NCBI GenBank assembly: GCA_017609995.1
Contig: JAFCCX010000001.1
Span: forward strand, 1 to 31,006
From: Candidatus Pacearchaeota archaeon
Lineage (GTDB): Archaea > Nanobdellota > Nanobdellia > UBA10117 > JABICX01
Direction of reading: 5' to 3'
DNA length: 31,006 nt
Below the pieces are notes generated by a model. That model saw only the letters and a program-made list of their open reading frames with translations. It did not search any database and was not told the DNA's origin. This document shows positions 1 to 5,268 of this stretch, piece by piece. A program made the translations under genes and the position numbers. Positions within the stretch are counted from its first letter, which is position 1. Each line of letters begins with the position of its first letter.

Positions 1-960
1 GAATTCTTACTAGATGTGCGTCATTTATGGCTCAGAAGCAGAAAAATGCAGGCAGTTTTGAAGGTTAGAAGCAAGGTTTTCGAGGCAATTCACGAATATT
101 TCAAGAAAAAGGACTTCACACTTACACATATGCCGCTTTTAACAGCTGGAAGCGCAGAATCTGGTCCAGATTTGTTCAAAGTCAAATATTTTGATAAAAC
201 AGCTTACTTAAGCCAAACTTGGCAGCTTTATGCAGAGTCAATTCTGCCATCTATTGAGAAGATTTACACAATCACACCTGCTTTTAGAGCTGAAAAGTCA
301 AAAACATTCAGACATTTGACTGAATATTGGACAGCAGAAGCTGAAATGGCTTGGTGCGACCTAGATTGCTCTATTAAAATCACAGAAGAGCTAGTTGAAT
401 ATGTTCTTCAGAAGGTTGCTCGCGAATGTGCTAAACCTTTAGCTGTTTTGGGCAGAGATCTAGCTCAGTTAAAGCAAATTAAGAGACCTTTCCCTAGAAT
501 TACTTATGATAAAGCTCTTCAAATTCTTGCAAAAGATGGAATGAAGATTAAATGGGGGAAAGACCTCAGAACAGAAGAGGAAAGGCAATTGATGAAACAC
601 TACAAGAAACCTCTTGTTGTTACTCATTATCCAAAGAAAGTTATGGCTTTCTACAAGCCGCGGGATGCTAAAAAGCCAGAAACAGCTTTAGCATATGATA
701 TGCTTTGCCCAGAAATTGGAATAGAGCTAGTTGGCGGGTCTGAAAGAGAGCTTGATATTGCAGAATTAAAGAAATCTCTGAAAGATGTTGGTGAGGACCC
801 AAAGAAATACGCATTTTATTTTGACAGTCGGAAGTATGGTAAAGTTCCGCATGCTGGTTTTGGCTTAGGAATAGAAAGACTAATCTTCTGGATTTGCAAA
901 CTAGACCATATCAGAGATGCTATACCTTTCCCAAGAACAATTTCTAGAATTAAACCTTAA
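1..960 (+). CDS. asnS: Asparagine--tRNA ligase, 5'-truncated by the window edge
   Basis: Frame is open from base 1 (EFLLDVRHLWLRS...). Class IIb motifs YLSQTWQLYAE, FRAEKSKTFRHLTEYW and HAGFGLGIERL...IRDAIPFPR. AsnRS is favoured over non-discriminating AspRS on motif wording only. Confidence 0.85.
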   Translation, partial: EFLLDVRHLWLRSRKMQAVLKVRSKVFEAIHEYFKKKDFTLTHMPLLTAGSAESGPDLFKVKYFDKTAYLSQTWQLYAESILPSIEKIYTITPAFRAEKSKTFRHLTEYWTAEAEMAWCDLDCSIKITEELVEYVLQKVARECAKPLAVLGRDLAQLKQIKRPFPRITYDKALQILAKDGMKIKWGKDLRTEEERQLMKHYKKPLVVTHYPKKVMAFYKPRDAKKPETALAYDMLCPEIGIELVGGSERELDIAELKKSLKDVGEDPKKYAFYFDSRKYGKVPHAGFGLGIERLIFWICKLDHIRDAIPFPRTISRIKP

Positions 961-2489: not shown

Positions 2490-2512
2490 GAAACTTTTTC
2501 AAAAAAAGTTTC
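2490..2512. repeat. Perfect 10-bp inverted repeat between tRNA-Arg and tRNA-Glu
   Basis: GAAACTTTTT-CAA-AAAAAGTTTC. Confidence 0.85.
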
Positions 2513-2527
2513 ATCAAAAAACGATCT

Positions 2528-2644
2528 GCCCCTGTGGTGTAGTCCGGTTAATCATACCAGCCTCTCAAGCTGGTGACTCGAGTTCAAAGCGAGCTTCGCT
2601 CGGTTTACTACGAACGAAGTTTGGAGAAAATCTCGGCGGGGGCA
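2528..2644 (+). tRNA. tRNA-Glu(CUC) with a 42-nt non-canonical T-loop intron (about 2589-2630, position 59/60)
   Basis: GCCCCTG/CGGGGGC acceptor, CCAGC-CTCTCAA-GCTGG anticodon arm, TCGAG/CTCGG T-stem. Removing 2589-2630 restores the T-loop TTCAAAT. Confidence 0.92.
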
Positions 2645-4792: not shown

Positions 4793-4899
4793 CCCCTCGT
4801 AGCTCAATGGTAGAGCGCACGGTTGTAGATTGGTTTACCAGCTAATAACTGGTCCGTGCAGATCCCGTGAGGTTCCTGGTTCAAATCCGGGCGAGGGGA
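4793..4899 (+). tRNA. tRNA-Tyr(GUA) with a 35-nt anticodon-loop intron (about 4829-4863, position 37/38)
   Basis: C1-G72 acceptor CCCCTCG/CGAGGGG with A73, CACGG/CCGTG stem, GTA at 4825-4827. The central BHB helix TTGT/GCAG has bulges AGA and ATC. Confidence 0.92.
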
Positions 4900-4900
4900 C

Positions 4901-5118: not shown

Positions 5119-5268
5119 GCCCTGGTGGTGTAGCGGCTATCATCTCAGCCTGTCGAGCTGAGGACTCGAGTTCGAGCGTAATTCAGGGGACCAACGAAGC
5201 GAAAATATTATAAACGCTTCGAATAACACAAATATACCTTGAATAAACCGAAAATCTCGGCCAGGGCG
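5119..5268 (+). tRNA. tRNA-Asp(GUC) with a 78-nt non-canonical T-loop intron (5177-5254, position 59/60)
   Basis: GCCCTGG/CCAGGGC acceptor with G73, TCAGC-CTGTCGA-GCTGA arm, TCGAG/CTCGG T-stem. BHB with central helix TTCG/CGAA and 3-nt bulges AGC and AAT. Confidence 0.93.

What the first reader, a model, noticed from the sequence alone, without database searches (positions are those of the whole stretch)
2583..2636. Non-canonical T-loop intron in tRNA-Glu(CUC) with a relaxed BHB
A 42-nt insert splits the T-loop (TTCAAA|...|T). The junction has 3-nt bulges (AAG, AAT) around TTCA/AGAA (3 pairs plus an A-A mismatch). It is followed by a 9-bp helix CGAGCTTCG/CGAAGTTTG that competes with a local hairpin CGAGC-TTC-GCTCG. 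Non-canonical intron positions are known in Thermoproteales and some DPANN and require a broad-specificity splicing endonuclease. Standard tRNA callers may miss or truncate this gene.
Basis: partly seen in the sequence, partly recalled or inferred. Interest (0 to 1): 0.65.

Follow-up and report, generated by a model that had tools for sequence, protein, structure and literature searches.

The report
T-loop intron in tRNA-Glu gene
A tiny DPANN (Nanoarchaeia) archaeon carries a real tRNA-Glu(CUC) gene interrupted in its T-loop by a 42-base splice-out insert of a known kind, with two less usual features: the genome's cutting enzyme looks like the plain 'strict' type, and related inserts sit at the same spot in other tRNAs.

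Summary
- Window 2528-2644 (+) is a tRNA-Glu(CUC) gene. A 42-nt insert (2589-2630) splits the T-loop between positions 59 and 60.
- Removing the insert gives a perfect 75-nt cloverleaf that aligns gap-free with intron-less tRNA-Glu genes of relatives.
- ARAGORN and Rfam both miss the unspliced gene.

**The junction is a slightly relaxed bulge-helix-bulge (BHB) motif.**
- It has the T-stem, TTCA/AGAA (3 pairs plus A·A), bulges AA^G and AA^T, one extra unpaired G, and a 9-bp inner helix.
- This geometry occurred in 3 of 20,000 shuffles.
- The 'competing' local hairpin is negligible (p = 0.006).

**Context**
- tRNA-Asp(GUC) at 5119-5268 has a second 59/60 intron (78 nt, strict BHB).
- Related genomes carry 59/60 introns in Glu, Asp, Ala, Trp and Phe tRNAs. 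Four of these form one 40-43-nt family.
- The genome encodes RtcB and a single one-unit EndA. This EndA is collinear with M. jannaschii α4 and lacks the CSL and N. equitans loop insertions.

**Precedent**
- 59/60 introns with relaxed BHB are known and were cleaved in vitro in ARMAN-2.
- α4 EndAs occurring with disrupted tRNA genes in DPANN were noted in 2018.

**Verdict:** a genuine intron and a new member of a known kind. No RNA evidence could be obtained. The first-stage scan had already flagged the Asp intron and the shared motifs on this same window.

The parts
2528..2588 (+). 5' exon of tRNA-Glu(CUC), tRNA positions 1-59. Acceptor strand 2528-2534, anticodon CTC 2564-2566, T-stem strand 2578-2582, T-loop TTCAAA 2583-2588.
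   Evidence: The spliced form is called tRNA-Glu(ctc), 75 nt, by ARAGORN. It aligns gap-free with 8 relatives' tRNA-Glu genes with all stems paired.
2589..2630 (+). 42-nt BHB-type intron at position 59/60.
   Evidence: Excision restores the cloverleaf. Its geometry is rare in shuffles, 3 of 20,000. It belongs to a 40-43-nt family found in G002, G017 and G035.
2631..2644 (+). 3' exon: T60, T-stem strand CTCGG 2632-2636, acceptor strand CGGGGGC 2637-2643, discriminator A 2644. No CCA is encoded.
2583..2586 (+). Central BHB helix, 5' strand TTCA (T54-A57). It pairs with AGAA 2625-2628 through 3 pairs plus A2586·A2625.
   Evidence: The free-RNA pair probability is only about 0.17.
2587..2589 (+). 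5' bulge AA^G. The predicted 5' cut lies between 2588 and 2589.
   Evidence: Register of the BHB motif. The same layout occurs in six other 59/60 introns.
2590..2623 (+). Inner helix h' (2590-2598 / 2615-2623, 9 bp), a 3-bp apical extension (2600-2602 / 2611-2613) and an 8-nt loop.
   Evidence: MFE fold. Pair probabilities 0.97-0.99. Kept in the 4-member family consensus.
2624..2628 (+). Unpaired G2624 followed by the 3' strand of the central helix, AGAA 2625-2628.
   Evidence: All four short-family members have one extra unpaired base here.
2629..2631 (+). 3' bulge AA^T. The predicted 3' cut lies between 2630 and 2631.
5119..5268 (+). tRNA-Asp(GUC) with a second 59/60 T-loop intron. Exons 5119-5176 and 5255-5268, intron 5177-5254 (78 nt). 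Strict central helix TTCG/CGAA, bulges AG^C and AA^T.
   Evidence: The spliced form is a 72-nt tRNA-Asp(gtc) by ARAGORN. ARAGORN's own call 5120-5189 is a mis-call with a malformed T-arm. Rfam gives 18.8 bits.

Best explanation
Window 2528-2644 is a functional tRNA-Glu(CUC) gene carrying a 42-nt archaeal BHB-type intron between tRNA positions 59 and 60.

Structure in the precursor:
- The T-stem is the outer helix.
- T54-C56 (and nominally A57) pair with the intron's 3' end, AGAA, to form the central helix.
- A 9-bp (12 bp with the extension) intron hairpin is the inner helix.
- This presents two 3-nt bulges, AA^G and AA^T.

Proposed processing:
- The genome's splicing endonuclease EndA cuts after the second base of each bulge (2588|2589 and 2630|2631).
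- RtcB joins the exons to give the UUCAAAU T-loop and probably circularises the intron.
- CCA is added afterwards.

Shown here: the gene anatomy, the BHB geometry, conservation of the site and layout in relatives, and the presence of EndA and RtcB genes. Inferred: cleavage and ligation in vivo.

The intron belongs to a small, lineage-restricted family. Members sit at the same T-loop site of different tRNAs (Glu, Ala, Trp, Phe) in related genomes. This implies intron spread between tRNA genes, as described for Thermoproteales.
For: (1) Excision yields a 75-nt tRNA-Glu(ctc). The unspliced form is missed by ARAGORN and Rfam.

(2) The spliced sequence aligns gap-free with 8 tRNA-Glu genes of relatives. 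Acceptor, anticodon and T stems are paired in all 153 cells, with 8, 16 and 9 cells changed on both sides relative to ours.

(3) BHB geometry in register occurs in 3 of 20,000 shuffles, and the intron fold has z = -3.3. The inner helix has p = 0.97-0.99.

(4) The same 59/60 layout is found in G000 tRNA-Asp, G005 tRNA-Glu(CUC), G011 tRNA-Asp, G002 tRNA-Ala(CGC), G017 tRNA-Trp and G035 tRNA-Phe.

(5) The family pattern occurs in 3 of 401 genomes of the class, against 1 reversed-pattern control hit. The four members share a consensus fold.

(6) No other tRNA-Glu turned up by ARAGORN, BLAST or two BHB-splice scans of the assembly.

(7) An EndA with both domains is present, with the Tyr/His/Lys triad aligned to M. 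jannaschii EndA. RtcB scores 560 bits.

(8) Precedent: the 59/60 relaxed-BHB intron of ARMAN-2 pre-tRNA-Cys was cleaved in vitro (PMC3239211).
Against: - There is no RNA evidence: no public run holds the locus.
- The central helix has only 3 Watson-Crick pairs plus an A·A mismatch and an extra unpaired G. Its predicted probability in free RNA is about 0.17.
- The only EndA found is α4-like, and the literature describes that type as needing a strict 3-4-3 motif (PMC3239211, PMC3488258).
- The assembly is 71% complete, so an intact second tRNA-Glu (for example UUC, which relatives have) may exist unassembled.
Confidence: 0.88

Rival explanations
1. A tRNA-Glu pseudogene disrupted by insertion of a small palindromic repeat. 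It is not spliced, and GAG is decoded by another tRNA-Glu (for example UUC) in the unassembled part of the genome.
For: The assembly is 71% complete. Relatives carry a separate tRNA-Glu(UUC). The BHB is imperfect. The insert is made of short palindromic CGARC/GYTCG units like those of a small mobile repeat.
Against: The exons show no decay and keep every stem pair. The insert sits exactly where bulge-register cuts restore a 7-nt T-loop. The same arrangement recurs in six other tRNA genes, including the orthologous Glu(CUC) of G005. No other copy of the insert exists in the genome outside this gene.
Confidence: 0.06
2. The insert is removed, but not at 59/60 or not through the BHB described. 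Because of the A-run, cuts at 56/57, 57/58 or 58/59 give the same mature RNA. An alternative pairing (TTCA with TGGA 2622-2625) or a different enzyme could define the sites.
For: The mature product is identical for four cut registers. TTCA can form 4 pairs with TGGA 2622-2625. The predicted probability of the proposed central helix is low in free RNA.
Against: The alternative pairing makes bulges of 5 and 6 nt and destroys two inner-helix pairs. Only the 59/60 register gives 3-nt bulges on both strands. That register is the one shared by all seven 59/60 introns, including those with perfect 4-bp helices. 59/60 is the documented site in ARMAN-2.
Confidence: 0.05
3. An assembly or binning artefact joining unrelated fragments inside a tRNA gene.
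For: The genome is a fragmented MAG of 88 contigs.
Against: The locus lies 2.5 kb inside a 31-kb contig. Both exon halves match one tRNA. Independent genomes show the same architecture, with homologous inserts.
Confidence: 0.01

Closest known systems
ARMAN-2 (Ca. Micrarchaeum) pre-tRNA-Cys(GCA) intron at 59/60 and pre-tRNA-Pro(GGG) T-loop introns at 53/54 + 59/60 (Fujishima et al. 2011, PMC3239211)
   Same: A DPANN archaeon with the same insertion point (59/60) in the T-loop. The BHB is relaxed in one case and strict in another, mirroring Glu (relaxed) and Asp (strict) here. The 59/60 site is described as overlapping the major insertion sites of other archaea.
   Different: The ARMAN-2 intron is 13 nt and of hBH type (one bulge lost). 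It is cut by a three-unit ε2 EndA with an ASL loop. Here the intron is 42 nt, both 3-nt bulges are present but the central helix has a mismatch, and the EndA is a single-unit α4-like protein.
Non-canonical and 'transposed' tRNA introns of Thermoproteales (Sugahara 2008; Fujishima 2010, as summarised in PMC4033280)
   Same: Introns at many non-canonical positions, several per gene. Similar intron sequences occur in different tRNA species, read as intron transposition. Here one family sits in Glu, Ala, Trp and Phe tRNAs. Another is shared between a 37/38 site and a 59/60 site.
   Different: A different phylum (Nanoarchaeia, not Thermoproteota). Those organisms have (αβ)2 EndA with the CSL loop, and this lineage does not.
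α4-type EndA of DPANN lineages linked to disrupted tRNA genes (Kaneta et al. 2018, PMC5829648)
   Same: A one-unit EndA in a DPANN genome that nevertheless has non-canonical and multiple tRNA introns. That paper also predicted undetected disrupted tRNA genes in such genomes.
   Different: That paper ties the trait to an 'L3' loop. L3 is the N. equitans-type insertion before the catalytic His (residues 90-98; PMC3488258). This EndA has no such insertion: Tyr to His is 10 residues as in M. jannaschii, against 16 in N. equitans.
Nanoarchaeum equitans (αβ)2 EndA and its split or relaxed-BHB tRNA substrates
   Same: The same class: G048 is N. equitans. Its α subunit is the closest solved relative of this EndA (E = 9e-32), and both share the C-terminal ...WKKP Trp.
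   Different: N. equitans has two subunits, a degenerate L10 in α, and the basic L3 insertion. This lineage has one gene with an intact acidic L10 (VDDEGDVTYY) and no insertion.

Membership tests
Archaeal BHB tRNA intron, strict hBHBh' (3-4-3) | Two 3-nt bulges separated by exactly 4 base pairs | tested here: not met
   Both bulges are 3 nt. The central helix has 3 pairs plus A2586·A2625, and G2624 is an extra unpaired base. The neighbouring tRNA-Asp intron does meet this (TTCG/CGAA).
Archaeal BHB tRNA intron, relaxed motif | Outer helix (exon-exon) and inner helix (intron-intron) flank a central helix, with at least one canonical 3-nt bulge carrying a splice site | tested here: met
   T-stem of 5 bp (p about 0.8), inner helix of 9 bp (p 0.97-0.99), and a 3' bulge AAT flanked by helices on both sides. 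The geometry occurs in 3 of 20,000 shuffles.
Archaeal BHB tRNA intron | Cutting after the 2nd base of each bulge and joining the exons gives a complete, foldable tRNA | tested here: met
   A 75-nt tRNA-Glu(ctc) by ARAGORN. It is collinear with 8 orthologues and all stems are paired.
Archaeal BHB tRNA intron | Cleavage by EndA and ligation by RtcB in vivo or in vitro | not testable with these tools
   The genes are present: EndA at C7:202-825 and RtcB at C83:1824-3122. No RNA run was listed.
α4-type (homotetrameric) EndA | A single EndA gene encoding one N-terminal plus one catalytic domain | tested here: met
   One PF01974 hit and one PF02778 hit, both in the same 207-aa ORF. Nearly all 60 relatives have one gene per genome, while the N. 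equitans control shows two.
α4-type (homotetrameric) EndA | The same polypeptide carries both the catalytic Tyr/His/Lys triad and an acidic L10 loop for tetramer contacts | tested here: met
   An ungapped 143-residue alignment to M. jannaschii EndA (1a79): RVYRRG...QDHAKW...STRKKLL, with VDDEGDVTYY aligned to VDADGDIVYY. The N. equitans β subunit has VDSEGDVTYY.
α4-type (homotetrameric) EndA | Assembly as a homotetramer | not testable with these tools
   Needs biochemistry or a structure.
Broad-specificity EndA (loop-bearing: CSL/L1, ASL/L2, NEQ/L3) | An insertion loop with a basic residue near the active site | tested here: not met
   A 7-residue gap against the A. pernix α subunit at the CSL site. 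A 6-residue gap against N. equitans α at the L3 site and no gap against M. jannaschii. The protein does have flanking Lys residues (GVKSKR) and the C-terminal Trp that PMC3488258 reports only for broad-specificity enzymes.
Transposed / shared tRNA intron families (Thermoproteales-type) | Similar intron sequences inserted in different tRNA species | tested here: met
   40-43-nt introns with the core CGAACG(A/G)(A/G)GTT(C/T)G occur at 59/60 of Glu, Ala, Trp and Phe tRNAs in G000, G002, G017 and G035. The C63 Ser(UGA) 37/38 intron matches the G005 Glu 59/60 intron: score 27 against a shuffle maximum of 13.

The most novel reading that the evidence does not exclude
In this Nanoarchaeia order, a plain one-unit EndA has acquired tolerance for imperfect BHB motifs by means other than the known ones. 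The enzyme has none of the three known specificity loops. Candidate determinants are the C-terminal Trp, Lys residues at the CSL-equivalent spot, and a Lys-rich N-terminal tail in some members. That tolerance would let short palindromic introns spread between tRNA T-loops (59/60) and anticodon loops, for example by reverse splicing. The T-loop sequence UUCRA itself supplies half of the motif.
Probability: 0.3. Interest if true: 0.6.

Novelty: new member of a known kind. Interest (0 to 1): 0.42.

Why it matters
- It restores a tRNA-Glu gene, and a correctly bounded tRNA-Asp gene, to the annotation of a reduced DPANN genome that otherwise seems to lack them. Common callers under-count tRNAs in these lineages.
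- The locus gives a matched natural substrate pair for one α4-like EndA: a strict BHB in tRNA-Asp and a mismatched BHB in tRNA-Glu, with the same T-stem. This makes it directly testable whether subunit architecture or loop insertions decide EndA specificity.
- The shared intron families extend the 'intron transposition' pattern from Thermoproteales to Nanoarchaeia.

Tried and rejected
(1) A pattern scan of genome contigs for the intron family returned only random bacterial matches, because the pattern was too loose for 596 Gb. The same pattern run within the class was informative.

(2) RNA evidence: two run searches found no holder.

(3) Naming the order through the look-up of encoding contigs failed, as the protein is not on record. 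The class was inferred from G048 being N. equitans.

(4) Synteny between the Glu loci of G000, G002, G003, G004 and G005: no shared neighbouring ORFs or tRNAs within ±1.5 kb. Inherited and independently gained introns therefore cannot be told apart by context.

(5) My first BHB scan required 3 inner-helix pairs and missed tRNA-Tyr and tRNA-Asp. The relaxed scan fixed this.

(6) The alternative central helix TTCA/TGGA was rejected because it gives 5- and 6-nt bulges.

(7) The local hairpin as a competitor was rejected (p = 0.006).

(8) A link between the Lys-rich N-terminal EndA tail and T-loop introns was rejected as a rule. Family f3 genomes with such introns have acidic tails, and G005's EndA is cut off by a contig end.

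(9) No C/D-box motif or ORF was seen in the 42-nt intron by eye.

Full report
**1. The observation**

The sequence at 2528-2644 reads as a tRNA whose T-loop is split.
- The acceptor strands are GCCCCTG (2528-2534) and CGGGGGC (2637-2643), with discriminator A2644.
- The anticodon loop is CTCTCAA, with CTC at 2564-2566.
- The T-stem is TCGAG (2578-2582) / CTCGG (2632-2636).
- The T-loop is TTCAAA (2583-2588), then 42 nt (2589-2630), then T2631.

ARAGORN and the Rfam tRNA model do not report the gene. With permissive thresholds Rfam gives only a 17.3-bit partial match, against a cut-off of 29. When 2589-2630 is removed, ARAGORN calls a 75-nt tRNA-Glu(ctc) with a regular cloverleaf.

Two corrections apply.
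- One base (G2624) is unpaired between the inner and central helices, and the inner helix extends by 3 more pairs after a mismatch.
- The local hairpin does not compete. In the partition function its pairs have p = 0.006, against 0.97-0.99 for the long helix.

**2. More than chance, and not a pseudogene**

In 20,000 dinucleotide-preserving shuffles of the insert, a central helix of at least 3/4 pairs in register arose in 19%. Combined with an inner helix of at least 5 bp it arose in 0.6%, and with at least 9 bp in 3 cases. The insert's own fold has z = -3.3.

The spliced sequence aligns without gaps to eight tRNA-Glu genes of related genomes. Acceptor, anticodon and T stems are paired in all 153 cells, with 8, 16 and 9 cells changed on both sides relative to ours. 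This is the signature of a gene kept under tRNA structural constraint.

No second tRNA-Glu was found in the assembly by ARAGORN, by BLAST with the gene, or by two whole-genome 'splice at BHB, then call tRNA' scans. The assembly is only 71% complete, and relatives have a separate tRNA-Glu(UUC). This argues for importance, not for essentiality.

**3. Context in the same genome**

The relaxed scan and inspection show five intron-bearing tRNA genes among about 25.
- Glu(CUC): 59/60, 42 nt.
- Asp(GUC): 59/60, 78 nt.
- Cys(GCA) on C5: D-arm, about 41 nt.
- Tyr(GUA): 37/38, 35 nt.
- Ser(UGA) on C63: 37/38, 47 nt.
- There is also an unresolved multi-insert tRNA-like gene at the start of C2.

The tRNA-Asp case lies in this window. 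ARAGORN's call at 5120-5189 is wrong. The true gene is 5119-5176 + 5255-5268, with intron 5177-5254. It has a perfect central helix TTCG/CGAA and bulges AG^C and AA^T. The first-stage scan had noted this Asp intron and the motifs it shares with the Glu intron. I reached the same structure independently and confirmed it.

**4. Relatives**

G048 is Nanoarchaeum equitans. The window's class is therefore Nanoarchaeia. The order could not be named.

Among 60 relatives, many tRNA-Glu genes are intron-less, and some carry inserts in the D-arm. Seven genes have an intron at exactly 59/60 with the same layout. That layout is T-stem, TTCR, a 3-nt bulge cut after base 2, then the intron, then a 4-nt partner strand, then A(A/G)^T and the T-stem.

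| Genome | tRNA | Intron length | Central helix |
|---|---|---|---|
| G000 | Glu(CUC) | 42 nt | one mismatch + one extra unpaired base |
| G000 | Asp(GUC) | 78 nt | perfect 4 bp |
| G005 | Glu(CUC) | 64 nt | perfect 4 bp |
| G011 | Asp(GUC) | 66 nt | perfect 4 bp |
| G002 | Ala(CGC), with G3·U70 | 40 nt | one mismatch + one extra unpaired base |
| G017 | Trp(CCA) | 43 nt | one mismatch + one extra unpaired base |
| G035 | Phe(GAA) | 41 nt | one mismatch + one extra unpaired base |

In the four 40-43-nt introns the mismatch sits at different positions.

These four introns are homologous.
- They share the core CGAACG(A/G)(A/G)GTT(C/T)G and a consensus fold of a 9-bp helix plus a 3-bp cap.
- The intron helix shows only one-sided G-C to G-U changes, which points to recent common origin.
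- A stricter pattern for the family hits 3 of 401 genomes of the class, all in the window's order, against one reversed-pattern control hit.

A second family links positions. The 37/38 intron of G000 tRNA-Ser(UGA) aligns with the 59/60 intron of G005 tRNA-Glu(CUC) at score 27, against a shuffle maximum of 13. G004, of the same genus as G005, has an intron-less Glu(CUC), so gain or loss is recent. Homologous introns in unrelated tRNA species are what was called intron transposition in Thermoproteales (PMC4033280).

**5. The enzymes**

RtcB is present (560 bits).

EndA is one gene, a 207-aa ORF on C7 with both Pfam domains.
- It aligns without a gap over 143 residues to M. jannaschii α4 EndA. 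The Tyr/His/Lys triad and an acidic L10 loop (VDDEGDVTYY) are retained.
- Against N. equitans α it lacks the 6-residue basic insertion before the catalytic His. That insertion is the 'L3' loop, residues 90-98 (PMC3488258).
- Against A. pernix α it lacks 7 residues at the CSL site.
- It does carry Lys residues flanking that site (GVKSKR).
- It ends in RWKKP. The Trp there is one that PMC3488258 reports only in broad-specificity enzymes.
- Its Lys-rich N-terminal tail is not conserved. It is acidic in family f3 and absent in genus g2.

Nearly all 60 relatives have one EndA gene, while the N. equitans control shows its two. By the sequence criteria that can be tested, the enzyme is therefore α4-type.

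**6. How it most likely works**

The precursor folds so that the T-stem, the T54-C56/intron pairing and the intron hairpin present both splice sites in 3-nt bulges. EndA cuts at 2588|2589 and 2630|2631. RtcB ligates the exons, and CCA is added afterwards, since it is not encoded. The T-loop sequence UUCRA itself supplies one strand of the central helix and two bases of the 5' bulge. This may explain why 59/60 is a recurrent insertion site. The gene anatomy, the conservation and the enzyme genes are shown here. The cleavage and ligation steps are inferred.

**7. Comparison with what is known, and verdict**

Position 59/60 and relaxed motifs there are documented, and a 59/60 intron was cleaved in vitro in ARMAN-2, with an ε2 EndA (PMC3239211). 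Kaneta et al. 2018 (PMC5829648) already noted α4 EndAs in DPANN lineages going with disrupted tRNA genes. They also predicted undetected disrupted tRNAs in such genomes.

This locus is therefore a new member of a known kind. Two modest additions are the apparent absence of all three described specificity loops in the EndA, and the small intron families shared among T-loops of different tRNAs in Nanoarchaeia. I put the chance that the insert is a genuine spliced intron at about 0.88. Interest is moderate (0.42).

Noticed in passing
window 5119-5268 (+): tRNA-Asp(GUC) has a 78-nt intron (5177-5254) at 59/60 with a strict BHB (TTCG/CGAA). ARAGORN's call at 5120-5189 uses a false 3' end. The first-stage scan also noted this intron (e1-5286874).
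   Followed up: yes
window 4793-4900 (+): tRNA-Tyr(GUA) has a canonical 37/38 intron of 35 nt. Its central helix TTGT/GCAG has two G·U pairs and its inner helix is weak, so my strict BHB scan missed it.
   Followed up: partly
G000 C5:4717-4825 (+), at the contig end: A tRNA-Cys(GCA) gene with an intron of about 41 nt in the D-arm region (after about position 11). Rfam gives 39 bits and ARAGORN misses it.
   Followed up: partly
G000 C2:~5-140 (+): A tRNA-like gene (acceptor GGGGGGT/ACCCCCC followed by ACCA) with large insert(s) after the D-arm and an odd anticodon loop CTAATAA. Its identity is unresolved and it is possibly a multi-intron tRNA.
   Followed up: no
G000 C63:4579-4709 (-) and L017 (G005): The 37/38 intron of tRNA-Ser(UGA) in G000 is homologous to the 59/60 intron of tRNA-Glu(CUC) in G005 (GGGAATCC...GGTCTTCCAACCCCA; score 27 against a shuffle maximum of 13). 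One intron family is thus shared between canonical and T-loop sites.
   Followed up: yes
G000 C7:202-825 (-): The EndA has a 31-residue Lys-rich N-terminal tail (MVKKRKTKKKIVIKKK...). Tails in relatives are Lys-rich, acidic or absent, so this is a variable low-complexity extension.
   Followed up: partly
window 2491-2513 (+): A/T-rich inverted repeat AAACTTTTT-CA-AAAAAGTTT in the 40-nt spacer between tRNA-Arg(UCG) and tRNA-Glu. It may be a promoter, terminator or processing element.
   Followed up: no
L016 (G002), L035 (G017), L022 (G035): The tRNA-Ala(CGC), tRNA-Trp(CCA) and tRNA-Phe(GAA) genes of relatives each carry two introns, one in the D-loop or D-arm and one at 59/60.
   Followed up: partly
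L018 (G012), L020 (G010), L025 (G008), L028 (G051): The tRNA-Glu genes of other relatives carry inserts at other sites: after the T-stem 5' strand, in the D-loop or D-arm, and next to the anticodon loop. Insertion sites therefore vary within one tRNA species across the class.
   Followed up: no
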